Shown: one piece after another, positions 4,233-29,916 of the stretch
Position numbering within the stretch: position 1 is the stretch's first letter
How the letters are laid out: each line of letters starts with the position of its first letter
Virus record (IMG/VR): IMGVR_UViG_2563366805_000009
Source: a virus
Taxonomy: Duplodnaviria; Heunggongvirae; Uroviricota; Caudoviricetes
Length of the DNA: 40,060 bases
Strand: one strand, 5' to 3'
The notes under the pieces: model-generated
Databases searched by the model: none
Seen by the model: only the letters and a program-made list of their open reading frames with translations
Told to the model about the DNA's origin: nothing
Translations under genes and position numbers: made by a program

Positions 4233-5086
4233 GCACCATCCTGAAATGGGCGGGAAATAAAACCGCCGTAATGTCCGAACTGAAAAAACATCTTCCTGCT
4301 GGTCCGCGACTAGTTGAACCTTTCGCGGGTTCCTGTGCTGTGATGATGGAGACGGATTATCCCTGCTATCTGGTTGCGGATATTAATCCTGATTTAATCA
4401 ACCTCTATAAAAAGGTTGCCGCTGATTGTGAATCGTTTATATCTCGCGCCAAAGTTTTATTTGAGATCGCAAACAGGGAGGTGGCTTATTACAACATAAG
4501 GCAGGAGTTTAATTACTCAACTGAAATTACTGATTTCATGAAAGCGGTATATTTCCTGTATCTCAATCGTCACGGTTACCGTGGGTTATGTCGCTATAAC
4601 AAGAGCGGGCATTTCAACATTCCCTACGGTAATTATAAAAATCCGTATTTCCCTGAAAAAGAAATTCGCGCTTTTGCAGAAAAAGCCCAGCGAGCAACGT
4701 TTATCTGCGCCAGCTTTGATGAAACGCTGGCGATGTTGAAGGCGGGGGATGTGGTGTATTGCGATCCGCCTTATGACGGTACGTTTTCCGGCTATCACGC
4801 TGACGGCTTTACTGAAGATGACCAGTATCACCTGGCATCCGTTCTTGAACATCGGTCATCAGAAGGACATCCGGTCATTGTTTCTAACAGTGACACATCC
4901 CTGATCCGTTCGCTGTATCGCAATTTTACTCACCACTATATCAAGGTAAAACGCAGCATCGGCGTAGCAGCTGGTGAGAGTAAATCAGCAACAGAAATCA
5001 TTGCTGTTTCCGGGCCGCGCTGCTGGGTGGGATTTGATTATTCGCGTGGCGTGGATAGTTCTGCCGTGTACGGAGTACGTGCATGA
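4229..5086 (+). CDS. dam: Dam-family DNA adenine-N6 methyltransferase (orphan, phage-encoded)
   Basis: N-terminal KWAGNK...EPFAGS AdoMet-binding region and catalytic DPPY motif ([10 protein letters not shown]); start chosen at internal ATG 4229, overlapping the previous stop. Confidence 0.85.
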
Positions 5087-7497
5087 GCCATGCCGATATG
5101 AGCAACTGCTGCGGCTTTAACGAGGCTGCCGCATCGTTCTCATGGAACAGCCCGAAAAAGGCCATTAACCCTTATCTGGACCCGGCGGAAGTTGCGCCGG
5201 TTTCTGCGCTTTCAAACCTGATCACTCTGTACGCTGCCGATAACGAGCAGGAACAACTGCGCCGCGAGGCACTGAGTGATCAGGTCTGGGAGCGTTATTT
5301 CTTTAATGAATCCCGTGATCCTGTCCAACGCGAAATAGAGCAGGATAAGCTCATTAGCCGGGCAAAGTTGGCGCATGAGCAGCAGCGTTTTAACCCGGAC
5401 ATGGTCATTCTGGCAGACGTCAGCGCCCAGCCCTCCCATATCAGCAAGCCGCTGATGCAACGTATTGAATACTTCAGCAGCTTGGGCAGGCCAAAGGCTT
5501 ATTCCCGCTATTTACGTGAGACGATTAAGCCATGTCTGGAACGACTGGAGCATGTACGCGACAGCCAGCTATCTGCATCTTTTCGTTTTATGGCAAGCCA
5601 TGTAGGGCTGGACGGCCTGCTGATTCTGCCTGAAATGAGTCAGGATCAGGTGAAACGCCTGTCTACCCTTGTCGCTGCGCATATGAGCATGTGCCTTGAT
5701 GCAGCTTGTGGTGATTTGTATGCCACCGATGACGTTAAGCCAGAAGAAATCCGCAAGACATGGGAAAAGGTGGCAGCGGAAACCCTGCGTCTGGATGTCA
5801 TCCCGCCTGCGTTTGAGCAACTCCGTCGGAAAAGAAACCGCCGTAAACCCGTGCCCTATGAACTCATTCCGGGTTCGCTGGCGCGTATGTTGTGCGCCGA
5901 CTGGTGGTACCGGAAATTATGGAAAATGCGTTGCGAATGGCGGGAAGAGCAGTTGCGTGCTGTCTGCCTGGTCAGCAAAAAAGCATCTCCCTATGTCAGC
6001 TATGAAGCCGTGATGCATAAACGTGAGCAGCGCCGCAAGTCACTGGAGTTTTTCCGTTCTCATGAACTGGTGAACGAAGAGGGCGACACGCTGGATATGG
6101 AAGACGTGGTAAACGCCAGCAGCAGCAACCCGGCGCACCGCCGCAATGAGATGATGGCCTGTGTTAAAGGTCTGGAGCTTATCGCGGAAATGCGCGGTGA
6201 CTGCGCCGTTTTCTACACCATTACCTGTCCGTCACGTTTCCATTCCACGCTCAATAACGGCAGACCAAACCCAACCTGGACAAATGCGACGGTAAGACAA
6301 AGCAGCGATTATCTGGTCGGCATGTTTGCTGCATTTCGTAAGGCGATGCACAAAGCCGGGTTGCGCTGGTATGGCGTGCGGGTGGCTGAGCCGCATCATG
6401 ACGGTACAGTTCACTGGCACCTGTTGTGTTTCATGCGCAAAAAAGACCGCCGCGCCATTACTGCATTGTTGCGTAAGTTTGCCATCCGTGAAGACCGCGA
6501 GGAACTGGGTAATAACACTGGTCCACGCTTTAAATCTGAGCTGATAAACCCGCGCAAAGGAACGCCGACAAGCTACATCGCGAAATACATCAGTAAGAAC
6601 ATTGACGGGCGTGGTCTGGCTGGCGAGATCAGCAAGGAAACGGGTAAATCCCTGCGTGATAACGCTGAATACGTTAATGCCTGGGCGTCTCTGCATCGTG
6701 TTCAGCAATTCCGCTTCTTTGGTATTCCGGGACGTCAGGCTTACCGTGAACTTCGCTTGCTGGCTGGTCAGGCGGCAAGGCAACAGGGTGACAAAAAAGC
6801 AGGTGCGCCGGTACTGGATAACCCGCGTCTTGATGCCATTCTGGCTGCTGCTGATGCTGGTTGTTTTGCCACCTACATCATGAAGCAGGGCGGCGTACTG
6901 GTTCCCCGCAAATATCACCTCATCAGAACCGCTTATGAAATCAACGAAGAGCCAACCGCCTATGGCGATCACGGTATTCGTATTTATGGCATCTGGTCAC
7001 CCATTGCAGAGGGCAAGATCTGCACTCATGCAGTGAAGTGGAAAATGGTTCGTAAGGCCGTTGACGTTCAGGAGGCGGCAGCCGACCAGGGCGCTTGCGC
7101 CCCTTGGACTCGTGGCAATAACTGTCCCCTTGCTGAAAATTTGAACCAACATGAGAAAGATGAATCAGCAGATGGGGATACCAGAACGGACATTACCTGC
7201 ATGGATGACAAGGAATTGCACGATTACCTGCACAGTATGAGCAAAAAAGAGCGCCGGGAACTGGCAGCAAGATTGCGCCTGGTTAAACCGAAACGGCGTA
7301 AAGACTACAAACAGCGAATTACAGAGTATCAGCGTCAGCAGCTCGTCTATGAACTGAAGTCCAGAGGATTTGATGGCAGCGAGAAAGAGGTCGATTTGCT
7401 CCTTTGCGGTGGCAGTATTCCGTCAGGAGCAGGCCTGCGTATCTTCTATCGGAACCAGCGTTTGCAGGAAGATGATAAGTGGCGGAACATGTATTAA
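5083..7497 (+). CDS. A: Replication initiation endonuclease (P2 gpA family, rolling-circle)
   Basis: 804-aa ORF; HWHLL (HxH) motif and conserved Tyr-containing regions typical of gpA-type Rep; position after dam/TraR genes. Confidence 0.85.
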
Positions 7498-7591
7498 TCA
7501 CGCGGGTTAACAATTCGTGCTCTTAATAATACCAGGCATATCAGGCTGATGAACGTAAAAAAACGTTTTACATCAGTAAGATTATTATATA

Positions 7592-7607
7592 CTGTAAATA
7601 TAAACAG
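7592..7607. promoter_or_regulatory. LexA (SOS) box CTGT-N8-ACAG upstream of small ORF
   Basis: Sequence TACTGTAAATATAAACAGTG (7590..7609) matches consensus TACTGTATATATATACAGTA at CTGT/ACAG and an A/T-only spacer; about 45 bp upstream of ATG 7651, which has an AGGAGG RBS. Confidence 0.55.
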
Positions 7608-7749
7608 TGGTTATATGTACAGTATTGCGTATGGTGTTATAGGAGGAAAGATGCAGGACTATTTTTTGGAGTCTTTGAAGCTCCAGCGCATTGATTTTTT
7701 TCTTAAGCTTGTAGCGGCTAGTGAGTGTAGTGATGAAGAGAAGGGGCTA

Positions 7750-8902
7750 AATAGCTGCGCGGAATAGTAGATCACTGAAAGGGAACTCAGCCCGGATTGT
7801 GCGATCTGATCAATCGCCAAACCAACCAAAATCACCAACCGGACTGAGCGATGCCGATCATAGTACCAATACCCCGTGGCGAACGACGCCTGATGCAGAA
7901 AGCTATTCATAAAACGCGTGATAAAAATCATGCCCGCAGACTCACGGCCATGCTGATGCTTCATCGGGGTGAACGGGTCAGCGATGTTGCCAGAACTCTC
8001 TGTTGTGCCCGTTCATCCGTTGGTCGCTGGATTAACTGGTTTACGCACTCAGGTATTGAAGGCCTGAAATCCTTACCCGCAGGGCGCTCCCGACGCTGGC
8101 CTTTTGAACATATCTGCACCCTGTTACGTGAGCTGATAAAGCATTCTCCCGGCGATTTTGGTTATCAACGTTCACGCTGGAGCACCGAATTACTGGCAAT
8201 AAAAATCAATGAGATAACCGGTTGCCAGTTACATGCAGGAACCGTTCGCCGCTGGTTGCCATCTGCGGGGCTTGTATGGCGCAGGGCCGCGCCAACTCTG
8301 CGTATCCGTGACCCACATAAAGATGAAAAGATGGCGGTAATCCACAAAGCGCTGGATGAATGCAGCGCAGAGCATCCGGTATTTTATGAAGATGAAGTGG
8401 ATATCCACCTTAATCCTAAAATCGGTGCGGACTGGCAGTTGCGCGGACAGCAGAAACGGGTAGTGACGCCGGGGCAGAACGAAAAATACTATCTGGCCGG
8501 CGCACTGCACAGTGGCACGGGTAAAGTCAGCTACGTGGGCGGCAACAGCAAAAGTTCAGCGCTGTTTATCGCTCTGCTGAAGCACCTGAAAGCCACTTAC
8601 CGGCGGGCGAAAACAATCACGCTGATCGTTGATAACTACATTATCCATAAAAGCCGCGAAACACAGCGCTGGTTGAAAGCAAATCCCAAGTTCAGGGTAA
8701 TTTACCAGCCGGTTTACTCGCCGTGGGTGAATCATGTGGAACGGCTATGGCAGGCACTTCATGACACGATAACCCGTAATCATCAGTGCCGCTCAATGTG
8801 GCAGTTACTGAAAAAGGTCCGCCATTTTATGGAAACCGCCAGCCCATTCCCCGGAGGAAAACATGGTCAGGCAAAAGTGTAGCGGTATTAGGCGCAGCTA
8901 TT
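7750..8902 (+). mobile_element. IS630-family insertion sequence (1153 bp) with TA target duplication in a CTAG target
   Basis: Terminal inverted repeats AATAGCTGCGC at 7750..7760 and 8892..8902 (reverse complement); TA at 7748..7749 and 8903..8904; flanks reconstitute C-TA-G; single 343-aa transposase ORF; length equals IS630 as recalled. Confidence 0.85.
7851..8882 (+). CDS. IS630-family (Tc1/mariner-like DDE) transposase
   Basis: 343-aa ORF with HTH N-terminus and DDE-type C-terminus (…VDNYIIHKS…), inside the TIR-bounded element. Confidence 0.9.
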   Translation: MPIIVPIPRGERRLMQKAIHKTRDKNHARRLTAMLMLHRGERVSDVARTLCCARSSVGRWINWFTHSGIEGLKSLPAGRSRRWPFEHICTLLRELIKHSPGDFGYQRSRWSTELLAIKINEITGCQLHAGTVRRWLPSAGLVWRRAAPTLRIRDPHKDEKMAVIHKALDECSAEHPVFYEDEVDIHLNPKIGADWQLRGQQKRVVTPGQNEKYYLAGALHSGTGKVSYVGGNSKSSALFIALLKHLKATYRRAKTITLIVDNYIIHKSRETQRWLKANPKFRVIYQPVYSPWVNHVERLWQALHDTITRNHQCRSMWQLLKKVRHFMETASPFPGGKHGQAKV

Positions 8903-9026
8903 TAGCTCTGCAGTGGGTTTCTGAATTGACTGATGAGTTGATGGCGAAAATTCGAAGCCATGAATACAGTAGGTCGATGGATGTAATCAGTTGAGCTTGT
9001 TTCGTTAGGACTTGATAAGGGAACCG

Positions 9027-9049
9027 AAAAGGGGCATTAAGCCCCTTTC
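9027..9049. terminator. Bidirectional Rho-independent terminator-like hairpin
   Basis: AAAAGGGGC-ATTAA-GCCCCTTT, T-rich on the plus side and A-run (T-run on minus) on the other; lies between the interrupted small gene and the convergent lipoprotein gene. Confidence 0.45.
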
Positions 9050-9061
9050 TCATAAGTTGAT

Positions 9062-9361
9062 TTAGTTGTTCCCCAAAGAGCCGGCCATGGCTGCATATTT
9101 AATTTCTTCGCTGGGTATTTCAGGATGTAGTTGAATTTGCCTGATGATATAGCCAGGAACTTCGTCACTCCACAGTTTCGCCGCGTCCTTACAGACCTTA
9201 TACGCGAAGTCTCTATTCTCAAAGGCATAGGATTTTCCGTATGCATATTGCTGACAGGCATGAACATAAGCTCCGAAGTCGCCGTCTTTATCTGGCAAAG
9301 CACATCCAGCTAAGGCTATGATGATTGCTACTAACGTAAAGGAGAAAGTTATACGTTTCAT
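9062..9361 (-). CDS. Small lipoprotein (99 aa), function unknown
   Basis: Signal peptide with lipobox (LAGC) at N-terminus; ORF track. Confidence 0.6.
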   Translation of the reverse strand: MKRITFSFTLVAIIIALAGCALPDKDGDFGAYVHACQQYAYGKSYAFENRDFAYKVCKDAAKLWSDEVPGYIIRQIQLHPEIPSEEIKYAAMAGSLGNN

Positions 9362-9469
9362 GGTCTCTTTCTAAGCGTTTAGCATTATTTAACTAAGGGG
9401 TATCTGCCGTGATTTGGTAGTCCCTGATATATATTCTCAGGGACTATGCTGAAGTAGCTTTAATTTTGA

Positions 9470-10276
9470 TTATTTAGAAAGGTACTTATCTCTAAGTTGA
9501 TTCAGTCTGTCAGCATCGCGTTCTGAAAACTCGGCGTCACCATAGATCGATTTCCCATCTGCGTCTTCAAGGCCAATGACTGTGACGGTAAATATAGCAT
9601 CAGCCGGAACTTTAAGTTTTCCCCAATCAGAGTATCTATTAGGGGCTAATTTCCAGTTGGCTTTCTCACCTGGTTCCAGACCTCCAGAAATTTTATAGTT
9701 GAAGACGTCAGAGAACCAAGGGACGCTTCTTCCTGGGCTGGCAATAACTCCTTTGAAGAATACTCTGGCAACCGCTTTGTCTGTTCCGTTTTCAACGCTA
9801 ATATCCAGAATTGGCTGATCATTGCCGTAATCCTCTTTCTGGAAATAAAAACGGGAACGTTCGACCTTGAAGGCTTTCATTTTTTCCGCAGCCTGTGTTG
9901 CAGAGGTTTGTTTGGCTTCCAGTTCTTTTATTTCTTGCAGAGCCTGTTCTTTCTCTCTCTTCTCACGCTCAAGGCGAATAGTTTGTGCGTAATTTATAAC
10001 CTCATCACCAGTTTTACCTTCCAACGCTGACTTAATTTTTGTTTCGTAGACGTCCCCAGAAGACGTTCCAGCCTGCATTAGCTCTCTCATGTTGATTTGG
10101 CTAAAGGCAACGACTTTAACTGCATCATCAAACTGAGCTTTTTTATCTGCAGGTAAGGACTCTCTTACTTTTTGAATGGACTCTTTCATCGACTGATCGC
10201 TTGATGCATCGATCTTCGGTTTGTCACAAGCAGTAAGCAGCAGAGCAAAAGCAATTACGCCAGTTAATTTCTTCAT
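9470..10276 (-). CDS. Lipoprotein (268 aa), function unknown
   Basis: Start moved to internal ATG (MKKLTGVIAFALLLTAC…, lipobox LTAC); charged coiled-coil-like middle region; ORF track 9470..10348. Confidence 0.6.
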   Translation of the reverse strand: MKKLTGVIAFALLLTACDKPKIDASSDQSMKESIQKVRESLPADKKAQFDDAVKVVAFSQINMRELMQAGTSSGDVYETKIKSALEGKTGDEVINYAQTIRLEREKREKEQALQEIKELEAKQTSATQAAEKMKAFKVERSRFYFQKEDYGNDQPILDISVENGTDKAVARVFFKGVIASPGRSVPWFSDVFNYKISGGLEPGEKANWKLAPNRYSDWGKLKVPADAIFTVTVIGLEDADGKSIYGDAEFSERDADRLNQLRDKYLSK

Positions 10277-10437
10277 ATCCCTATCCCAATCGTAAAAAAA
10301 CAAGGCTAATCCTAACAGGATTAGCGGGCATGACAAACTCATAGCCATATAGGTGTGCTGTATAAATTAGCGGGATGAGAAAGCCTGCACAGACCCTCAT
10401 GTTGAAACTTGATTTTAGCTCAAAAGAGCTGACACTA

Positions 10438-10618
10438 AATAACTGCGCGGAATAATGTTCCACTTTCGGTTAGCCCTTGGCCCTTGGCTCTTGCTGGGTA
10501 AGGCGTGGGGCCGTTTTCTTCGCCTGATCCTGCTGTATCTGGCCTACAGTATGTTGTCCTTACGCGACATGCCACATGTCAGTAAACGGCAGGTGTAGCA
10601 GTATTAGACGCAGCTATT
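10438..10618 (+). mobile_element. 181-bp MITE-like element with IS630-type terminal repeats, TA duplication in a CTAG target
   Basis: Left end AATAACTGCGCGGAATAAT matches the IS630 left end at 7750 (2 mismatches); right end GTGTAGCAGTATTAGACGCAGCTATT matches the IS right end (2 mismatches); TA at 10436..10437 and 10619..10620; flanking C…G; no ORF inside. Confidence 0.6.
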
Positions 10619-10805
10619 TAGTGTGTATTAAGCTGGCTCATATTTATGACTGGTTTCAAGGTTTGACCGATTTTCATGTCATGCATGTCTATGCTGCATG
10701 AGTTCGCATGATCGTTTGAGGATCGGTTTGGCTAAGACATGCCAGAACTGGCGGGCTTTTGCTCATGTCATGCAGGTGCATGAAAACTACTACATAAAGC
10801 GGGCA

Positions 10806-10824
10806 GGCGTGGCGGGGATACGAG
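10806..10824. other. Probable cos site (19-nt cohesive-end region) of the P2/186-family phage
   Basis: GGCGTGGCGGGGATACGAG resembles the recalled P2/186 cohesive end GGCG(A/T)GGCGGGGAAAGCA(C/T) over the first 13 nt; lies between the A-side accessory region and the portal gene, as in P2. Confidence 0.4.
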
Positions 10825-10983
10825 CGCGCGCTCGCTTAGTTTTGTAACACTCTGAGTAAGGTCGCTTTTTAGAAGCAAATGGCTTGCAAATTTTTTCAAC
10901 ATTGAGGTAATTTGTTAGGTATCGAAGGATAAATTAAGACAAGAGCAAATTCTTATTGCTTTTTGGATGACTAGGTGCAAGTT

Positions 10984-12090
10984 ATGACAGGTAGTGTCCC
11001 AGTAGTGCTTTCTGAGTCTGAGTTAAAGTCGATCTTGACCTTAACTGAACGTTTCACATGGAACGTTGCAAGGCCAATTATTGCGTCTTTAGGGCTGCCA
11101 ACAGGTAGGGGGCGTGAAGCAACAAACGAAAAAATACTAGAAAGCCTCATTGATCTTAAAAGTAAAGATAGGCAAAAGTTTGATGGCATTATGGCAAACG
11201 TAAATGACCTAATTTTGGGTCAGGTCGTTTATGGTGAAAAAGCAATATTTAGTTTGACTGTAGATAATAGTGTAATTAAAACACTAAATGACAGATTTAG
11301 TTTCCAATGGAATTTGATGAATCAACCATCATTATTGGTTGATTCGATCCTTGATGATGTCCAATTGCAAAATGCTGTAAAAAATCAACCTGAACTTGTT
11401 AATTATTCTATTCAAAACACCCAGTCAATACTTGTTTTTTCATCTGTCAGAGAATTAGTTGTAAGAGAAAAAATTCCCCCGTCAGCACTTGCGCAATACA
11501 AGCAGTTTGATGAAATTATTGCAAAGCGAAAAGAAAAGCGACAATGTTTTGATGTCTGTATATTAGACTCTGTTACTAATAAAATTCATGTTTTGGTAGA
11601 TACTAATGGTAATATTATTGGTGATAATGTTACTTTTGCAAAGAGTAACATTATTCGTGAATTGTATAATCATGTCGGTTATGAATTTAAATCATCGGAA
11701 AAAGATTTTTATCCGTTAATTGAGCCAATTTTCAAACAAAATTCATTGCCTTATTCAAAATTAAGCTATAAAGTCTTTGATTTGTCATTTTTGACGAATG
11801 AGGGGACTACGCATAAAGAAAAGAAAAATGTGGCCACTAAAGACTTACGTGATGATTTGTTTAATAAGGAAGGCATCAAAGCAGTAGGCAGTATTGGTTT
11901 GTATCGTATTGGAATTAGAGTTGATAGAAATAATCCAAAACTGCAATTAGCGGATAACGTAGAGCTTATCATTCCGGGAACACTCCGCAGGCATCTAGGA
12001 GGGAGTAGTTGCTCTCCTGTTAACTATGCTATATTAAGTAAATGTATATCCAAAGATGATTTCGAAACCCTCACAAAGCTGATATTATAA
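10984..12090 (+). CDS. Hypothetical protein, gene 1 of AT-rich three-gene operon (368 aa)
   Basis: ORF track 10975..12090 (GTG); ATG 10984 preferred, AGGTG RBS 6 nt upstream; no P-loop, no nucleotidyltransferase GS…DxD or RT YADD motif seen by eye; strongly AT-rich. Confidence 0.6.
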   Translation: MTGSVPVVLSESELKSILTLTERFTWNVARPIIASLGLPTGRGREATNEKILESLIDLKSKDRQKFDGIMANVNDLILGQVVYGEKAIFSLTVDNSVIKTLNDRFSFQWNLMNQPSLLVDSILDDVQLQNAVKNQPELVNYSIQNTQSILVFSSVRELVVREKIPPSALAQYKQFDEIIAKRKEKRQCFDVCILDSVTNKIHVLVDTNGNIIGDNVTFAKSNIIRELYNHVGYEFKSSEKDFYPLIEPIFKQNSLPYSKLSYKVFDLSFLTNEGTTHKEKKNVATKDLRDDLFNKEGIKAVGSIGLYRIGIRVDRNNPKLQLADNVELIIPGTLRRHLGGSSCSPVNYAILSKCISKDDFETLTKLIL

Positions 12091-12102
12091 TTGGAGTCAG
12101 CA

Positions 12103-12537
12103 ATGAAGGATGGTGATATGCCCAAGATCATCAAAGAAATGTGTGCAGAACGCCCTGAAATTGGGGCGTTAGCTTGCTATTTGTACGATGAAATCGAGGC
12201 AAGGGCTAAAAAATCATCAAATATAGCTTTAAGTTATAAGGATTTATTTAATATAGCTGGTGGTTATAATAAGGTTTTACAGCCAGAAACGTATGAGCAG
12301 GTTATCTATCCGGCCATACAAATTCTTTGTAGCCCAAAGGTTGATTTTTTAAAACTCAATTATTGGTTCATTGATGATTTTCATGACCCTGTAGAACTTG
12401 AAATAGAGGAAGTTATTGAGGCGGAAATCAGTCAATCTTTAGCAAACCCATTTACAGGGGAGCTTATGTATGACTATAAGTCATTCGTATTTCCTTTTTT
12501 TACATTAGATGAATCTAAATCAAAGGATATTATCTGA
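12103..12537 (+). CDS. Hypothetical acidic protein, gene 2 of operon (144 aa)
   Basis: ORF track 12091..12537 (TTG); ATG 12103 with GGAG 6 nt upstream; begins 12 nt after gene 1 stop. Confidence 0.55.
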   Translation: MKDGDMPKIIKEMCAERPEIGALACYLYDEIEARAKKSSNIALSYKDLFNIAGGYNKVLQPETYEQVIYPAIQILCSPKVDFLKLNYWFIDDFHDPVELEIEEVIEAEISQSLANPFTGELMYDYKSFVFPFFTLDESKSKDII

Positions 12538-13202
12538 TGTTAAAAATGTCTGCAGCAATGAGTTTGGCTGATATTGATAATGATATTTTTCTTCAGCGTA
12601 TTAATGCTTCTATTACTCGTGTTAGATTTGCACTTCAATCGTACGATAATTTCAAACAATTTGTCAGGATTGAACTTGATTCTGCTGTAAAGGAAATAGA
12701 AGAGAATTCAAATAAGTTAAACTTCGATTTAACAGAAGATCAGCTTACTTTAATTTTATTGGCCAATATCAAAAATAAAGATATGGGCATTGAAGCATTT
12801 CATGAAAATAATCAGCGCGGACATTGTGATATTACAATAAAACTAAAGGATTATATTTGGCATGGCGAAGCCAAAAAACATACATCTTCATATAGTTATT
12901 TATTTAAAGGGTATGCTCAACTCACTGAACGATATAGTACAGGGACCGTAGACAGCGCAAGTGGTGGATTGATTATCTATACTCGTAATAGAAAATGTAA
13001 TGAAATGATGAGCAACTGGAAGGCGCATTTAGATAAATTCGCACCAAGAATTCATGCCTGTAAATCTATAACGATTACTCCTTGTCAAAAAAATCCATTG
13101 GTTTTTTATAGCCAGCATGTTCACACAGTTACTCAACTGAATTATGAAGTTATTCATTACCCTGTAAATCTATATCATGAGCCTGTAGATCCGGATCTTT
13201 AA
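12537..13202 (+). CDS. Hypothetical protein with PD-(D/E)xK-like nuclease motif, gene 3 of operon (221 aa)
   Basis: Start overlaps gene 2 stop (TGATG); motif …AFHENNQRGHCDITIKLKDYIWHGEAKKH (E…D-x13-E-x-K). Confidence 0.55.
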   Translation: MLKMSAAMSLADIDNDIFLQRINASITRVRFALQSYDNFKQFVRIELDSAVKEIEENSNKLNFDLTEDQLTLILLANIKNKDMGIEAFHENNQRGHCDITIKLKDYIWHGEAKKHTSSYSYLFKGYAQLTERYSTGTVDSASGGLIIYTRNRKCNEMMSNWKAHLDKFAPRIHACKSITITPCQKNPLVFYSQHVHTVTQLNYEVIHYPVNLYHEPVDPDL

Positions 13203-24518: not shown

Positions 24519-25897
24519 GCACAAAATTTTATACCCTGCTGACGGATATTGGCGCGGCGAAACTTGTCAGCGCCGCCGCGCTCGGTGTGCCGCTAAAAAT
24601 TACCCATATGGCGGTGGGCGATGGTGGCGGAACATTGCCGACGCCGGACGCAAAGCAGAGTGCACTGGTAAATGAGAAACGTCGGGCTGCGCTGAATATG
24701 CTCTATATCGACCCACAGAACAGCAGCCAGATTATTGCTGAACAGGTGATCCCTGAAAACGAGGGCGGTTGGTGGATACGTGAAGTGGGCCTGTTTGATG
24801 AGTCAGGGGCATTGATTGCCGTGGGCAACTGCCCGGAAAGCTATAAGCCGCAACTGGCTGAAGGCAGCGGGCGTACCCAGACCGTGCGCATGGTGCTGAT
24901 TACCAGCAGCACGGACAATATCACCCTGAAAATCGACCCTGCTGTAGTGCTGGCAACCCGCAAGTATGTGGATGACAAGGCACTGGAGCTGAAGGTGTAC
25001 GCGGATGATCAGATGGCAAAACATCTTGCCGCACCGGACCCGCATTCACAGTATGCAGCCAAAGAAAGTCCTACGTTTACCGGGACACCCAAAGCGCCAA
25101 CGCCAGCGACGGGGAATAACACCACGCAGGTTGCGACCACCGCATTTGTTCAGGCGGCACTGACGGCTCTTATTAATGATGCGCCAGCCACGCTGGACAC
25201 GCTGAAAGAAATAGCCGTAGCCATTAACAATGATCCGAAATTCAGTACCACCATTAACAATGCGCTGGCACTGAAAGCGCCGCTGTCGAGTCCGGCACTC
25301 ACCGGAACGCCAACCGCACCGACTGCGGCACAGTCGGTCAACAATACACAGATTGCCACCACGGCATTTGTGAAATCGGCGATTGCGGCAATGGTGGGTT
25401 CTGCACCTGCGGCACTGGATACACTGAACGAACTGGCGGCGGCGCTGGGGAATGACCCGAACTTTGCCACGACAATGCTTAATGCACTGGCAGGTAAACA
25501 ACCGCTGGACAATACGCTGACTCATTTGAGTGGAAAGGATGTTGCTAGTCTTCTCGCATACCTTGGTTTGGGAGAAGCGGCAAAACGGAATGTGGGAACA
25601 GGGGAAAATCAGATACCTGATATGTCATCATATGCATCAGGTTCAGGCTGGCGAAAAATGCCAGATGGTTCAATTGAACAGTGGGGACGAATTAGTTTTC
25701 CTGGTGAACACGGGCCTGTATCCGCCAATGTTTCATTCCCGATTCCATTTACACAGACACCTGGCATTGTAATTGTGTGCGATGGTGGTTTCGGGGGCGG
25801 GAATATGTGGGGGGCGACCAACTGGAGCACTACCGGCTTCATAGCTCACTGCAATTATGGTCTTGAAGGTGGTGCGTTTTTCGCTAAGGGCTGGTAA
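24515..25897 (+). CDS. H: Tail fibre protein H: constant N-terminal part fused to the currently expressed variable C-terminal segment (25565..25897)
   Basis: 460 aa; conserved N-terminus [17 protein letters not shown]…; repeats …TTAFV…; crossover site lies inside the gene at 25551..25576. Confidence 0.85.
25551..25576. other. Invertase crossover site (left, inside H): TTCTCGCATACC-TT-GGTTTGGGAGAA
   Basis: 26-bp imperfect dyad with central dinucleotide, resembling hix/gix/cix/pix sites (…AAACC-NN-GGTTT…); marks the left end of the mirror symmetry. Confidence 0.55.
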
Positions 25898-26340
25898 TGA
25901 TGAAATATCTGTACGTAAACAACCTGGCATATCCTTACGAACTTCAGTCTCTTTATGTTGAAAAAGGTGAATGGCCTGAAGAAAAAGGTGTTGATATAGA
26001 CGAAGTAATTTTCAGGGAATATTTCTATGACACACCACCAGAAGGAAAATACAGATGTGTTGGAGAAGATGGACTGCCTGCATGGGCAGATATTCCTCCA
26101 CCAACACGTGAAGAACAAATTGCATCAGCCGAAACTAAAAAGCAGCAATTGATTAATCAGGCCAACGATTATATGAACAGTAGACAATGGGTTGGTAAAG
26201 CGGCTATTGGTCGTCTGAAAGGTGAGGAACTGGCGCAATATAATTTGTGGCTGGATTATCTGGACGCACTGGAGCTGGTCGATACTTCCGGTGCACCAGA
26301 TATTGAATGGCCTACGCCTCCGGCAGTTCAGGCCAGATGA
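25897..26340 (+). CDS. Tail fibre assembly protein (Tfa) for the expressed fibre tip
   Basis: 147 aa directly after H stop (ATGATGAAA overlapping); size and C-terminal conservation typical of Tfa. Confidence 0.75.
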   Translation: MMKYLYVNNLAYPYELQSLYVEKGEWPEEKGVDIDEVIFREYFYDTPPEGKYRCVGEDGLPAWADIPPPTREEQIASAETKKQQLINQANDYMNSRQWVGKAAIGRLKGEELAQYNLWLDYLDALELVDTSGAPDIEWPTPPAVQAR

Positions 26341-26914
26341 CATCCGGCGCGGTGCTGGTATCTGTTGCCGTCACCGCGTCAATGTAATCCAGCACGGCGT
26401 TAAGGCGGGTTGTTTCTGCCTGCGTCAGCTTCCGTCCGGCCTGTAATTTCAGTTGAATCAGACTGATGGAGGCCATTGCAGTATCAATCAGCGACTGGCG
26501 CTGTGCTTCTGCTGCATCTACTGCTGCGCCGTGCTGTGCCTCAGTATCGGTCACCCATTTCTCACCATCCCATTTATCGTATGGCGTTAACGGGGCGATA
26601 GTGGTTGTATTTTCAGGGTAATCACCCGGAGTTGTGATTTCTTTGGCTTCTCCCGTTTCGGTGTTATAGACGATTTCACCGCGATGGTCTGGCACATATT
26701 CCCATGAGTTAAAATCTGCAGAACGGCAGATAGCATAACCAGCCTTATATGTGCCTGGTGAATCTAAACAGGAATATGCCGGGATACCAACACCAACGGC
26801 AAGATATTCATTTGAAGTGGAAATATATTCCCGTATTTCACCATCATAGTTATAGACGGTAATATTCCCTGCCTTCGTGGCAATAATCTCGCTATTTAAT
26901 ACAGCGTTATCCAT
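26312..26914 (-). CDS. Tail fibre assembly protein (Tfa) of the alternative fibre
   Basis: 200 aa, convergent with the other tfa; follows the alternative fibre tip on the minus strand. Confidence 0.75.
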   Translation of the reverse strand: MDNAVLNSEIIATKAGNITVYNYDGEIREYISTSNEYLAVGVGIPAYSCLDSPGTYKAGYAICRSADFNSWEYVPDHRGEIVYNTETGEAKEITTPGDYPENTTTIAPLTPYDKWDGEKWVTDTEAQHGAAVDAAEAQRQSLIDTAMASISLIQLKLQAGRKLTQAETTRLNAVLDYIDAVTATDTSTAPDVIWPELPEA

Positions 26915-27393
26915 TATGCAGCCCTCACAATATAATTAAAGGCAATGTTACGTGGGCGGTTCTCATTTGCGGTTGGGACAACGGCTGAAGCATTAAAATT
27001 CGCATACAGGGAGCGTTGATACCCGGATGCTGATGCACCACTTAATGCGGGAGCTTTTGACTCCGAAGCCGAAAAGGCCCCTGACACGTATCCTAATAAC
27101 CCTTGTGAATCGCCAATTGAACTGTAGCCAACCACCCCGGTAATGTTTCGGATAGCATCTCCTTGTGCTGAAAGCAGAGTTCGCCCACTATCCACTCCCT
27201 TTCCACCATCCCAGCCACGAATAAACTCACCGCGTAAATCAGGCAATTTTAACGTCGGGTAAGCCTTTGCCAGATTAGGGTAATCTTCAGCAGAAAAAGC
27301 CGCACCGTTGCATTTCAGCCAGCCTGTTGGCGGTGTGGCTGAAGGCCATGGAACAGGCACACCAACAGGCAGCGCAGAGCCTTCCCCTAAACC
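26914..27393 (-). CDS. Alternative tail-fibre C-terminal segment (promoterless; becomes fused to H after inversion)
   Basis: In frame from the crossover core (…GLGE-GSALPVGVPVPWP…); the ORF-track N-terminal extension (MHFSQPVGG…) is antisense of the copy-2 coding sequence and is not considered real. Confidence 0.6.
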   Translation of the reverse strand, partial: GLGEGSALPVGVPVPWPSATPPTGWLKCNGAAFSAEDYPNLAKAYPTLKLPDLRGEFIRGWDGGKGVDSGRTLLSAQGDAIRNITGVVGYSSIGDSQGLLGYVSGAFSASESKAPALSGASASGYQRSLYANFNASAVVPTANENRPRNIAFNYIVRAA

Positions 27394-27407
27394 AACGTTT
27401 AAGAAAA
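27382..27407. other. Invertase crossover site (centre 1): TTCCCCTAAACC-AA-CGTTTAAGAAAA
   Basis: Outer half identical to the pin-proximal site's outer half; inverted relative to the left site. Confidence 0.5.
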
Positions 27408-27437: not shown

Positions 27438-27463
27438 TTCTCGCATACCTTGGTTTAGGGGAA
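27438..27463. other. Invertase crossover site (centre 2): TTCTCGCATACC-TT-GGTTTAGGGGAA
   Basis: Outer half identical to the H-internal site's outer half; direct repeat of the left site, 1887 bp downstream. Confidence 0.5.
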
Positions 27464-27931
27464 GGCTCTGCGCTGCCTGTTGGTGTGCCTGTTCCATGGC
27501 CTTCAGCCACACCGCCAACAGGCTGGCTGAAATGCAACGGTGCGGCTTTTTCTGCTGAAGATTACCCTAATCTGGCAAAGGCTTACCCGACGTTAAAATT
27601 GCCTGATTTACGCGGTGAGTTTATTCGTGGCTGGGATGGTGGAAAGGGAGTGGATAGTGGGCGAACTCTGCTTTCAGCACAAGGAGATGCTATCCGAAAC
27701 ATTACCGGGGTGGTTGGCTACAGTTCAATTGGCGATTCACAAGGGTTATTAGGATACGTGTCAGGGGCCTTTTCGGCTTCGGAGTCAAAAGCTCCCGCAT
27801 TAAGTGGTGCATCAGCATCCGGGTATCAACGCTCCCTGTATGCGAATTTTAATGCTTCAGCCGTTGTCCCAACCGCAAATGAGAACCGCCCACGTAACAT
27901 TGCCTTTAATTATATTGTGAGGGCTGCATAA
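27452..27931 (+). CDS. Second copy of alternative tail-fibre C-terminal segment, preceded by a 31-bp fragment of the H constant region
   Basis: Identical protein to the 26914..27393 segment; ORF-track start 27308 is an antisense artefact. Confidence 0.55.
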   Translation, partial: GLGEGSALPVGVPVPWPSATPPTGWLKCNGAAFSAEDYPNLAKAYPTLKLPDLRGEFIRGWDGGKGVDSGRTLLSAQGDAIRNITGVVGYSSIGDSQGLLGYVSGAFSASESKAPALSGASASGYQRSLYANFNASAVVPTANENRPRNIAFNYIVRAA

Positions 27932-28533
27932 TGGATAACGCTGTATTAAATAGCGAGATTATTGCCACGAAGGCAGGGAATATTACCGTCTATAACTATG
28001 ATGGTGAAATACGGGAATATATTTCCACTTCAAATGAATATCTTGCCGTTGGTGTTGGTATCCCGGCATATTCCTGTTTAGATTCACCAGGCACATATAA
28101 GGCTGGTTATGCTATCTGCCGTTCTGCAGATTTTAACTCATGGGAATATGTGCCAGACCATCGCGGTGAAATCGTCTATAACACCGAAACGGGAGAAGCC
28201 AAAGAAATCACAACTCCGGGTGATTACCCTGAAAATACAACCACTATCGCCCCGTTAACGCCATACGATAAATGGGATGGTGAGAAATGGGTGACCGATA
28301 CTGAGGCACAGCACGGCGCAGCAGTAGATGCAGCAGAAGCACAGCGCCAGTCGCTGATTGATACTGCAATGGCCTCCATCAGTCTGATTCAACTGAAATT
28401 ACAGGCCGGACGGAAGCTGACGCAGGCAGAAACAACCCGCCTTAACGCCGTGCTGGATTACATTGACGCGGTGACGGCAACAGATACCAGCACCGCGCCG
28501 GATGTCATCTGGCCTGAACTGCCGGAGGCGTAG
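27931..28533 (+). CDS. Tail fibre assembly protein, duplicate copy
   Basis: Identical 200-aa product to 26312..26914. Confidence 0.7.
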   Translation: MDNAVLNSEIIATKAGNITVYNYDGEIREYISTSNEYLAVGVGIPAYSCLDSPGTYKAGYAICRSADFNSWEYVPDHRGEIVYNTETGEAKEITTPGDYPENTTTIAPLTPYDKWDGEKWVTDTEAQHGAAVDAAEAQRQSLIDTAMASISLIQLKLQAGRKLTQAETTRLNAVLDYIDAVTATDTSTAPDVIWPELPEA

Positions 28534-28948
28534 GCCATTCAATATCTGGTGCACCGGAAGTATCGACCAGCTCCAGTGCGTCCAGATAATCCAGCCACAA
28601 ATTATATTGCGCCAGTTCCTCACCTTTCAGACGACCAATAGCCGCTTTACCAACCCATTGTCTACTGTTCATATAATCGTTGGCCTGATTAATCAATTGC
28701 TGCTTTTTAGTTTCGGCTGATGCAATTTGTTCTTCACGTGTTGGTGGAGGAATATCTGCCCATGCAGGCAGTCCATCTTCTCCAACACATCTGTATTTTC
28801 CTTCTGGTGGTGTGTCATAGAAATATTCCCTGAAAATTACTTCGTCTATATCAACACCTTTTTCTTCAGGCCATTCACCTTTTTCAACATAAAGAGACTG
28901 AAGTTCGTAAGGATATGCCAGGTTGTTTACGTACAGATATTTCATCAT
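28505..28948 (-). CDS. Tail fibre assembly protein, duplicate copy
   Basis: Identical 147-aa product to 25897..26340. Confidence 0.7.
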   Translation of the reverse strand: MMKYLYVNNLAYPYELQSLYVEKGEWPEEKGVDIDEVIFREYFYDTPPEGKYRCVGEDGLPAWADIPPPTREEQIASAETKKQQLINQANDYMNSRQWVGKAAIGRLKGEELAQYNLWLDYLDALELVDTSGAPDIEWPTPPAVQAR

Positions 28949-29280
28949 TACCAGCCCTTAGCGAAAAACGCACCACCTTCAAGACCATAATTGCAGTGAG
29001 CTATGAAGCCGGTAGTGCTCCAGTTGGTCGCCCCCCACATATTCCCGCCCCCGAAACCACCATCGCACACAATTACAATGCCAGGTGTCTGTGTAAATGG
29101 AATCGGGAATGAAACATTGGCGGATACAGGCCCGTGTTCACCAGGAAAACTAATTCGTCCCCACTGTTCAATTGAACCATCTGGCATTTTTCGCCAGCCT
29201 GAACCTGATGCATATGATGACATATCAGGTATCTGATTTTCCCCTGTTCCCACATTCCGTTTTGCCGCTTCTCCCAAACC
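28948..29280 (-). CDS. Second copy of the H variable C-terminal segment (promoterless, inverted)
   Basis: Identical to H residues [11 protein letters not shown]…AKGW; in frame to the crossover core at 29281..29282. Confidence 0.55.
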
Positions 29281-29294
29281 AACGTTTAAGAAAA
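29269..29294. other. Invertase crossover site (right, pin-proximal): TTCTCCCAAACC-AA-CGTTTAAGAAAA
   Basis: Inverted relative to the left site; lies about 55 bp upstream of the invertase gene, as gix/cix/pix sites do. Confidence 0.55.
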
Positions 29295-29349
29295 TGCAGA
29301 GGTAACAGCTAACTGGCATCATCTCCGGTTTTTATTCAGGGGGATGATC

Positions 29350-29916
29350 ATGCTTATTGGCTATGTACGCGTGTCAACAAATGACCAGAACACCGATTTG
29401 CAACGTAATGCACTGAACTGCGCGGGATGTGAGCGGATTTTTGAGGACAAAATCAGTGGCACTAAGTCCGACAGACCGGGGCTGAAAAAACTACTCAGGA
29501 CACTATCGGCAGGAGACACGCTGGTTGTCTGGAAGCTGGACAGGTTGGGGCGCAGTATGCGGCATCTTGTTACGCTGATAGAAGAGTTGCGCCAGCGTGG
29601 TGTGAATTTCAGAAGCCTGACTGACAGTATTGATACCAGTACCCCAATGGGCCGTTTCTTTTTTCATGTCATGGGTGCCCTGGCTGAAATGGAACGCGAA
29701 CTGATAGTTGAACGTACCAGGGCAGGGCTGGCTGCAGCTCGTGCCAAAGGCAGAGTAGGTGGACGCCGTCCTAAGTTGACCACCGAACAGTGGGCACAGA
29801 TTGGGCGTTTACTCGAGGCCGGAGAATCAAGACAGCGTATTGCACTGATTTTTGATGTAGGCGTTTCTACCATTTATAGAAAATTTCCGGCAAATAAGAT
29901 CAATGAATCCCCCTGA
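29350..29916 (+). CDS. pin: Serine-recombinase DNA invertase (Hin/Gin/Cin/Pin family)
   Basis: N-terminus MLIGYVRVSTNDQNTDLQRNAL with catalytic Ser; …VVWKLDRLGRSM… and C-terminal HTH; near-identical to the recalled e14 Pin / P1 Cin N-terminus. Start at second ATG (AGGGGG RBS). Confidence 0.9.
   Translation: MLIGYVRVSTNDQNTDLQRNALNCAGCERIFEDKISGTKSDRPGLKKLLRTLSAGDTLVVWKLDRLGRSMRHLVTLIEELRQRGVNFRSLTDSIDTSTPMGRFFFHVMGALAEMERELIVERTRAGLAAARAKGRVGGRRPKLTTEQWAQIGRLLEAGESRQRIALIFDVGVSTIYRKFPANKINESP

What the first reader, a model, noticed from the sequence alone, without database searches (positions are those of the whole stretch)
10438..10618. 181-bp MITE with IS630-type ends, also inserted at CTAG with TA duplication
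The element shares both terminal sequences with the full IS630 copy 1.5 kb upstream (each end 2 mismatches over ~25 bp), has no coding capacity, and is flanked by TA within C…G, the IS630 target signature. This suggests a non-autonomous derivative mobilised in trans by the IS630 transposase.
Basis: seen in the sequence. Interest (0 to 1): 0.55.

Follow-up and report, generated by a model that had tools for sequence, protein, structure and literature searches.

The report
IS630-type MITE fossil in P2-like prophage
The 181-bp stretch is a genuine miniature, non-coding transposon with the ends of insertion sequence IS630, inserted long ago at a TA inside CTAG in a P2-like prophage; it is an ordinary kind of element, though this family does not seem to have been described.

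Summary
Window 10438-10618 is 181 bp and non-coding.

1. Two related prophage contigs have the same intergenic region without the element. They read GCTGACGC-TA-GTGC, a precise empty site with one TA in CTAG.
2. Diverged copies (66-90% identity, 98-181 bp) lie at 12 other sites in E. coli, Erwinia tracheiphila, Serratia, Trabulsiella and metagenomes. Eleven of the 13 sites are CTAG, and the family's commonest ends equal the IS ends.
3. Three E. tracheiphila copies at different sites are 99-100% identical, which points to recent transposition there.

Corrections: the interior is not IS630-derived. In E. coli the family is rare (171 of 5426 genomes, 1-2 copies each). This copy sits at the same site in every carrier found, including S. 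Typhi Ty2. Its ends carry four G-to-A changes. It predates the neighbouring IS, which has empty sites in those relatives. It is therefore a hitch-hiking fossil, and the nearby IS630 is coincidental. This is a new member of a known kind; interest is low to moderate.

The parts
10438..10618 (+). 181-bp non-autonomous IS630-type element (MITE), in the same left-to-right orientation as the IS at 7750-8902
   Evidence: Sequence. Orthologous copies of 166-181 bp at the same site in 20 E. coli genomes, S. Typhi Ty2 and viral contigs. Paralogues at 12 other sites. Absent from the empty site in L059/L060.
10436..10437 (.). Left copy of the duplicated target TA (context CTA|)
   Evidence: The empty site GACGC-TA-GTGC in L059/L060 has a single TA.
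10619..10620 (.). Right copy of the duplicated target TA (context |TAG)
10438..10457 (+). Left terminal repeat AATAACTGCGCGGAATAATG. The IS left end is AATAGCTGCGCGGAATAGTA and the commonest family form is AATAGCTGCGCGGAATAGTG.
10593..10618 (+). Right terminal repeat GTGTAGCAGTATTAGACGCAGCTATT. The IS right end, identical to the commonest family form, is GTGTAGCGGTATTAGGCGCAGCTATT.
10473..10493 (+). Three tandem heptamers GCCCTTG GCCCTTG GCTCTTG. The copy number (1, 2 or 3) accounts for the 166/167-, 174- and 181-bp alleles.
10551..10570 (+). Central short palindrome (ATGTTGyCC...GCrACAT) conserved across the family
   Evidence: Consensus fold. The covariation term is negligible, so this is a conserved inverted repeat and not a demonstrated RNA structure.
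7750..8902 (+). Autonomous IS630/ISEc33-type insertion sequence, 1153 bp. The transposase ORF is 7851-8882 (343 aa). TA duplications are at 7748-7749 and 8903-8904 within CTAG. It is a possible but unproven trans-acting partner.
   Evidence: (PGAP label 'IS630-like element ISEc33 family transposase'). Empty site GGGGCTAGCTCTGC in L001-L003, L018 and L019.

Best explanation
The element is a miniature inverted-repeat transposable element of a low-copy family found in Enterobacterales. The family's termini are those of IS630. Shown: it was inserted into a single TA within CTAG in the intergenic region upstream of a DUF6694 lipoprotein gene, in the accessory region of a P2-like prophage, and the TA was duplicated. 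Inferred from established knowledge of IS630/Tc1/mariner elements: an IS630-type DDE transposase supplied in trans binds the roughly 20-30-bp terminal repeats, excises the element by cut-and-paste and integrates it at TA, with the CTAG preference typical of IS630. Shown: in this lineage the copy behaves as a fossil. It sits at the same site in every carrier found (E. coli, S. Typhi, viral contigs), it is single-copy, and its ends have four G-to-A changes relative to the family's commonest ends. It predates the IS630 copy 1.5 kb upstream and travels by hitch-hiking with the prophage module. Inferred: there is no ongoing transposition here, and the nearby IS630 is a later, independent CTAG insertion.
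For: Ends match the IS ends; shuffles give 0 matches. A precise empty site with one TA in CTAG exists in two related contigs. There are 13 independent family insertion sites, 11 in CTAG, with P about 1e-22 against the window background. Most copies at other sites carry a left end 19/20 identical to the IS and the Erwinia and L029 copies carry a right end 26/26 identical. Three E. tracheiphila copies at different sites are 99-100% identical. One of them lies 7 kb from an IS630-like transposase gene fragment (75% aa identity) that has a near-identical right end. No conserved ORF, no Rfam family, and folding no better than shuffles (z about -1.8). The copy is at the same site in 20 of 20 E. coli carriers, in Typhi Ty2 and in the P2-type viral and metagenome contigs. 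The IS is absent from those relatives, which have a clean empty site. IS630's preference for TA in CTAG is documented by the title of Tenzen & Ohtsubo 1991, cited in PMC2170065. TA-targeted cut-and-paste by an IS630-family transposase acting alone was shown for ISY100 (PMC2170065).
Against: No transposition of this element or its family has been observed; mobility rests on comparative evidence. The interior (about 135 bp) is unrelated to IS630, so the parent element is unidentified. The true partner could be another IS630-family member. In E. coli each paralogue is diverged and fixed at its own locus, so nothing shows intragenomic movement in this host. The empty-site contigs are only 81-86% identical in the flanks, so they represent a sister lineage of the module and not a recent pre-insertion allele. 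The window's host genome is not available, so its copy number is unknown.
Confidence: 0.88

Rival explanations
1. The element is an in-situ remnant of a full-length IS630 that inserted here and then lost its interior by deletion. On this view it is a one-off 'solo-ends' relic and not a member of a mobile MITE family.
For: Both ends are IS630-like and in the correct orientation, and the TA/CTAG flanks are as expected for an IS630 insertion.
Against: Only positions 1-17 and 156-181 match IS630; the interior has no similarity. The same interior is shared at 66-90% identity by copies at 12 unrelated sites in several genera. Independent deletions cannot produce that.
Confidence: 0.02
2. The element is a MITE that is still mobile in this host, mobilised in trans by the intact IS630 transposase encoded 1.5 kb away. 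The IS left end (7750) and the MITE right end (10618) might even act together as a 2.9-kb composite transposon carrying the two lipoprotein genes.
For: The transposase ORF is intact at 343 aa. The IS and the MITE are in the same orientation, so the outer ends form a proper left/right pair (scan). An IS630-associated composite transposon is known to transpose (title of Tenzen & Ohtsubo 1991, cited).
Against: This copy is at one fixed site in all carriers and is single-copy in every complete E. coli genome that has it. The IS and the MITE each have their own TA duplication and arose at different times. The MITE ends differ from the IS at 3 positions on the left and 2 on the right. No second copy was found in the 40-kb window.
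Confidence: 0.08
3. The element is a MITE by origin but has been exapted. It is retained because it supplies a promoter, terminator or spacer between the divergent DUF6694 lipoprotein gene and the prophage hotspot cargo.
For: It is retained at the same site across E. coli and Salmonella carriers. A junction promoter-like match, CTGACA-16-AATAAT, spans the left flank and left end at 10429-10456. The heptamer repeat number varies.
Against: The promoter count in the region (2) is not above shuffles (mean 1.4). Conservation of the element equals that of its flanks, so linkage explains its retention. The sister module works without it (L059/L060). Length variation of 7 or 14 bp argues against tight spacing constraints.
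Confidence: 0.05
4. The resemblance to the IS ends is chance similarity, or the stretch is a phage-specific regulatory sequence.
For: None beyond its fixed position in the prophage.
Against: No matches in 100 shuffles for either end. It occurs in non-phage contexts: an Rhs region, a fimbrial locus, an island beside ssrA and other chromosomal sites in E. coli, Erwinia and Serratia.
Confidence: 0.01

Closest known systems
IS630 (Shigella sonnei) / ISEc33-type insertion sequences, the autonomous relative
   Same: The terminal sequences are the same (the commonest family left end is 19/20 identical and the right end 26/26). Both duplicate TA. Both strongly prefer CTAG (11 of 13 sites).
   Different: The MITE has no transposase gene. 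It is 98-181 bp against 1153 bp. Its interior is unrelated to IS630, so it is not a simple deletion derivative.
RUP (repeat unit of pneumococcus), proposed to be mobilised by IS630-Spn1 (PMC2229807)
   Same: A small non-coding element whose terminal repeats match an IS630-family IS. It inserts at TA, and trans-mobilisation is inferred from comparative evidence only.
   Different: RUP is 107 bp and has about 108 copies per genome in a Gram-positive host. The present family has 1-2 copies per E. coli genome, lives in Enterobacterales mobile-element cargo regions, and has no sequence relation to RUP.
ERIC / IRU / MITEEc1 / MITEPlu5 (enterobacterial 123-127-bp repeats linked to 'CCC-type' IS630 elements; PMC6267812, PMC2229807)
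   Same: Enterobacterial MITE-like repeats flanked by TA, with suggested IS630-type partners.
   Different: ERIC-type elements are present in essentially all enterobacteria at tens to hundreds of copies, fold into very stable hairpins, and have different termini. This family is rare (171 of 5426 E. coli genomes), does not fold better than shuffled sequence (z about -1.8), and carries IS630-proper ('AATAG...') termini.
Stowaway MITEs of plants / Tc1-mariner MITEs; Correia elements of Neisseria
   Same: TA target duplication, terminal inverted repeats, non-autonomous, cut-and-paste logic.
   Different: Different kingdoms or hosts, much higher copy numbers, and no sequence similarity. For Correia elements no cognate transposase is known, whereas here the cognate ends are obvious.

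Membership tests
MITE (miniature inverted-repeat transposable element) | Small size (about 50-500 bp) and no coding capacity | tested here: met
   98-181 bp. No ORF is conserved in frame or start among 14 copies, and the 7-bp indel alleles shift the frame.
MITE (miniature inverted-repeat transposable element) | Terminal inverted repeats | tested here: met
   Imperfect terminal repeats extend to about 30 nt in the family consensus (columns 2-32 pair with 139-169). In this copy the first 10 nt match at 9 of 10, with scattered matches beyond.
MITE (miniature inverted-repeat transposable element) | Target-site duplication, verified against an empty site | tested here: met
   TA on both sides here; a single TA at the orthologous position in L059/L060.
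MITE (miniature inverted-repeat transposable element) | Multiple dispersed copies with unrelated flanks | tested here: met
   13 independent sites across genera. Copy number per genome is low, however: 1-2 in E. coli and at least 4 in E. tracheiphila.
MITE (miniature inverted-repeat transposable element) | Termini shared with an autonomous element that can supply transposase | tested here: met
   Ends match the IS630/ISEc33-type IS in the same window and an IS630-like element in E. tracheiphila.
IS630-family cognate element | TA duplication with preference for 5'-CTAG-3' | tested here: met
   11 of 13 sites are CTAG, against 0.7% of TA sites in the window. The IS copy itself is in CTAG and has an empty site in relatives.
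IS630-family cognate element | Binding and mobilisation by IS630 transposase | not testable with these tools
   Needs EMSA or footprinting and an in vivo or in vitro transposition assay.
IS630 internal-deletion derivative ('type I' MITE) | Interior colinear with the parent IS sequence | tested here: not met
   Only positions 1-17 and 156-181 align to the IS; the other matches are 7-10-nt chance words.
ERIC / MITEEc1 | Sequence similarity to the 127-bp ERIC consensus, ubiquity in E. coli, and a strong hairpin | tested here: not met
   Found in only 171 of 5426 E. coli genomes. Fold z about -1.8. The termini are AATAG-type, not the CCC-type described in PMC6267812. A direct alignment to the ERIC consensus was not run.
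A named ISfinder MITE entry | Identity to a deposited MITE sequence | not testable with these tools
   ISfinder is not available here. Full-text searches found no description of this family.

The most novel reading that the evidence does not exclude
The intact IS630 copy (left end at 7750) and the MITE (right end at 10618) are in the same orientation. They bracket two lipoprotein genes: a 99-aa lipoprotein and a DUF6694 lipoprotein. They could therefore act as an IS-plus-MITE composite transposon of about 2.9 kb, able to move prophage cargo to CTAG sites. More broadly, this MITE family recurs within tens of bases of the junction between conserved backbone and variable cargo in P2-like prophages (61 bp) and P1-like plasmids (43 bp), and directly after an integrase gene beside ssrA. 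It might therefore take part in cargo exchange and not be a mere passenger.
Probability: 0.06. Interest if true: 0.45.

Novelty: new member of a known kind. Interest (0 to 1): 0.3.

Why it matters
The finding adds a clean, textbook-quality example of an IS630-cognate MITE in enterobacteria: filled and empty sites, a TA duplication, and a CTAG preference at 11 of 13 sites. The family appears not to be described in the searchable literature and is left unannotated in RefSeq records ('none' or 'hypothetical protein' under the matches). Three practical uses follow. It explains an unannotated 181-bp block in the accessory region of P2-like prophages of E. coli and S. Typhi. It provides a marker for tracing this prophage module, through the MITE-filled versus empty state and the 1, 2 or 3 heptamer alleles. 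It also flags Erwinia tracheiphila as a host where the family has probably been active recently. It does not reveal a new mechanism.

Tried and rejected
- Rfam scan of 9000-11200 at E up to 1 found nothing.
- Single-sequence folds on both strands were not significantly more stable than shuffles. The alignment fold showed only the terminal inverted repeat and a short palindrome, with a covariation term of -0.09. An RNA-element reading was dropped.
- Empty-site searches using joined flanks failed in E. coli complete genomes for this locus, for the Rhs-locus copy and for the fimbrial-locus copy. They also failed in PLSDB for the P1-like plasmid copy. In each case the flanks exist only together with the MITE.
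- The apparent one-piece hits for the Rhs locus are paralogous intact rhs genes reading CTGG, not true empty sites.
- INPHARED phage records lack both the DUF6694 module and the MITE.
- A megablast search with the empty-type allele found no empty allele in E. coli complete genomes.
- The promoter/terminator scan was not above background for promoters.
- The original IS630 papers (PMC208372, PMC213363) are not held. Only their titles, seen in a reference list, could be cited.
- The source strain of the window was not identified: no complete E. coli genome has the IS at this site.

Full report
**1. The observation**

The coordinates are exact. The element is window 10438-10618 and is 181 bp long. 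It begins AATAACTGCGCGGAATAATG and ends GTGTAGCAGTATTAGACGCAGCTATT. It is preceded by CAC-TA and followed by TA-GTG, so it lies between two TAs inside C...G.

A 1153-bp insertion sequence lies at 7750-8902, 1535 bp upstream and in the same orientation.
- It encodes an intact 343-aa protein with DDE_3 and HTH domains.
- RefSeq labels identical copies 'IS630-like element ISEc33 family transposase'.
- Its ends are AATAGCTGCGCGGAATAGTA and GTGTAGCGGTATTAGGCGCAGCTATT, and it too is flanked CTA|...|TAG.

The small element matches the IS right end at 24 of 26 positions. It matches the left end at 17 of 20 positions (15 of the first 17). With up to three mismatches allowed, each IS end occurs in the 40-kb window only at the IS and at this element. 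None of 100 dinucleotide-preserving shuffles gave any match. Only positions 1-17 and 156-181 of the element align with the IS; the interior is unrelated.

**2. Is it an insertion? The empty site**

In complete E. coli genomes, the left flank and the adjacent DUF6694 lipoprotein gene occur in only 20 of 5426 genomes. They always come with the element at the same position, so no empty site was found there. Deposited phage genomes lack the module entirely.

The same copy, 166 bp long, is present at the same site in the P2-like prophage of Salmonella Typhi Ty2 (AE014613) and in other assemblies.

A protein-guided scan of IMG/VR contigs found two contigs, L059 and L060.
- They encode a 95%-identical DUF6694 protein.
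- Their intergenic region aligns with the window on both sides of the element at 81-86% identity, but the element is absent.
- They read GAAAGAGCTGACGC-TA-GTGCATATAAG.
- The window reads AAAAGAGCTGACAC-TA-[181 bp]-TA-GTGTGTATTAAG.

This is a precise filled/empty pair. It has one TA in CTAG in the empty allele and two TAs in the filled allele, which is the signature of IS630-type integration.

As an internal control, the IS at 7750-8902 has empty sites in the related prophages L001-L003, L018 and L019. These read GGGGCTAGCTCTGC.

**3. Is it a family?**

A sensitive search of E. coli genomes found matches in 171 of 5426 genomes, with 1-2 per genome. Besides the prophage locus, diverged copies lie in these places:
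- an orphan Rhs region (167 bp; 83% by BLAST, 89% over aligned columns);
- downstream of a fimbrial usher gene (166 bp);
- a prophage remnant;
- P1-like plasmids (166 bp);
- directly after an integrase gene beside ssrA (98 bp);
- beside a gene annotated 'ABC-three component system protein';
- an integrative conjugative element.

A pattern scan of one genome per species used a stringent 28-nt pattern, so the counts are lower bounds. It found four copies in Erwinia tracheiphila, one in Serratia fonticola and one in Trabulsiella odontotermitis. Metagenome and viral-contig scans added three further sites, plus many re-sightings of the prophage, Rhs and P1-plasmid copies.

In all there are 13 independent, fully delimited insertion sites, and all are flanked by TA. 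Eleven sites are CTAG, one is ATAG and one is TTAA. In the window CTAG accounts for 12 of 1728 TA sites, so the binomial probability of 11 or more in 13 is about 1e-22.

Most copies at other sites carry the left end AATAGCTGCGCGGAATAGTG (19/20 to the IS). The Erwinia and L029 copies carry the exact IS right end (26/26). Against these commonest ends, the window copy differs by four G-to-A changes.

Identity between copies at different sites is 66-92% over aligned columns, apart from the Erwinia set. Three E. tracheiphila copies with unrelated flanks are 99-100% identical. One Erwinia locus also holds two further features:
- the 3' part of an IS630-like transposase gene (75% aa identity), ending in AAAGTGTAGTGGTATCAGGCGCAGCTATT|TA;
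- about 200 bp further on, a further diverged end of the MITE family.

**4. What it is not**

- There is no conserved ORF. Alleles differ by 7 or 14 bp through one, two or three GCCCTTG heptamers at 10473-10493, which shifts the only long frame. Paralogues have different frames.
- No Rfam family matches.
- Folding is not better than shuffled sequence (z about -1.8).
- The alignment fold recovers only the extended terminal inverted repeat (about 30 nt) and a short central palindrome, with essentially no covariation.
- It is not ERIC/MITEEc1. That element is ubiquitous, folds strongly, and is linked to 'CCC-type' IS630 elements.

**5. How it most likely works**

- Shown: a non-coding element with IS630 termini was inserted at a TA in CTAG, with TA duplication. 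Relatives have done the same at a dozen other sites. At least in E. tracheiphila, copies are nearly identical at different sites.
- Inferred from established knowledge: an IS630-type transposase supplied in trans recognises the terminal repeats and moves the element by cut-and-paste into TA. An IS630-family transposase acting alone does this for ISY100 (PMC2170065). IS630's preference for TA in CTAG is given by the title of Tenzen & Ohtsubo 1991, cited in that paper.
- Inferred: in the lineage of this window the copy is a fossil. It is fixed at one site in all carriers across E. coli and Salmonella, and it is single-copy. Its ends are slightly decayed. It is older than the neighbouring IS, which is absent from every related prophage examined. 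The proximity of the two elements is therefore coincidental. Both simply landed in CTAG sites of a dispensable prophage region.

**6. Rivals**

- An in-situ deletion remnant of IS630 is excluded by the unrelated interior, which is shared with the dispersed copies.
- Chance similarity is excluded.
- Current mobility driven by the neighbouring IS, or joint action as a 2.9-kb composite transposon (7750-10618), is not excluded but has no support.
- Exaptation as a regulatory element is not excluded but is unsupported. The promoter-like match at the left junction is within background, and the sister module lacks the element.

**7. Comparison with known elements, and novelty**

Functionally this is the same kind of element as RUP/IS630-Spn1, the ERIC-type MITEs, and Tc1/mariner-Stowaway pairs. 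It meets all the sequence-level criteria of a MITE, and of an IS630 cognate, that could be tested here. Transposase binding and mobilisation could not be tested. It is not a simple deletion derivative.

Full-text searches found no description of this family. ISfinder could not be consulted.

Interest is low to moderate, about 0.3.

Noticed in passing
window 10975-13202 (+), three ORFs of 371, 148 and 221 aa: A three-gene cassette between the MITE and the phage portal gene. This is the variable slot of P2-like prophages where relatives carry other cargo: an AIPR-family protein, a HIRAN-domain protein plus an unknown, a PIN_12 protein, or a 270-bp ORF. It has no significant Pfam or PADLOC hit (only a sub-threshold Rep3_C match). 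The same cassette is annotated 'hypothetical' in E. coli ECONIH4. It is a candidate uncharacterised accessory or anti-phage system.
   Followed up: partly
window 10682-10832: A roughly 150-bp non-coding-looking block just upstream of the variable slot. It is conserved at 82-93% identity in about 1270 of 5426 E. coli genomes and in P2-like phages of Salmonella (Fels-2, SopEPhi, RE2010), Klebsiella and Yersinia. It contains repeated CATGTCATGCA-like motifs and a GC-rich hairpin followed by Ts at 10821-10834. No Rfam match. Function unknown; possibly a promoter or regulatory region for the cargo slot.
   Followed up: partly
window 7750-8902: The IS630/ISEc33-type copy is a lineage-specific insertion. 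Related prophages have the empty site GGGGCTAGCTCTGC. The insertion alters the 3' end of a small hypothetical ORF: 62 aa in relatives, 72 aa (7549-7767) here. No complete E. coli RefSeq genome has the IS at this site.
   Followed up: yes
window 10473-10493; L002, L003, L017-L019: A heptamer GCCCTTG inside the MITE varies between 1, 2 and 3 copies among otherwise near-identical prophage copies (166/167, 174 and 181 bp). This is a simple-sequence length polymorphism that could serve as a strain marker.
   Followed up: partly
window 25551-27407 and 27438-29294; ORF 29344-29916: A very long inverted repeat: 1857-nt arms, 99% complementary, only 30 nt apart. It covers mirrored ORFs of 147, 200 and 207 aa in the tail-fibre region, and it lies next to a 190-aa serine recombinase (Resolvase + HTH_7). 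It looks like a Gin/Cin-type invertible tail-fibre segment, but with unusually long, nearly identical arms.
   Followed up: partly
L001 (E. coli ECONIH4) 4989-5686: In this relative the DUF6694 lipoprotein gene is split by an IS1 insertion. This shows that the lipoprotein module is dispensable and is a frequent landing pad for insertion sequences.
   Followed up: no
L007 (P1-like plasmid), L008 (island beside ssrA), window: Family copies repeatedly lie close to the junction between conserved mobile-element backbone and variable cargo. The distances are 61 bp from the P2 backbone block here, 43 bp from conserved P1-like backbone, and 3 bp after an integrase stop codon next to DUF2290 and helicase genes. 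This may only reflect tolerated CTAG sites, but the pattern was not tested statistically.
   Followed up: partly
L012 (Erwinia tracheiphila) 340-456 and 657-720: An IS630-like transposase gene 3' end (75% aa identity to the window's) has a right end almost identical to IS630. About 200 bp away lies a further, diverged end of the MITE family. This suggests a dense population of IS630-type elements in that genome.
   Followed up: partly
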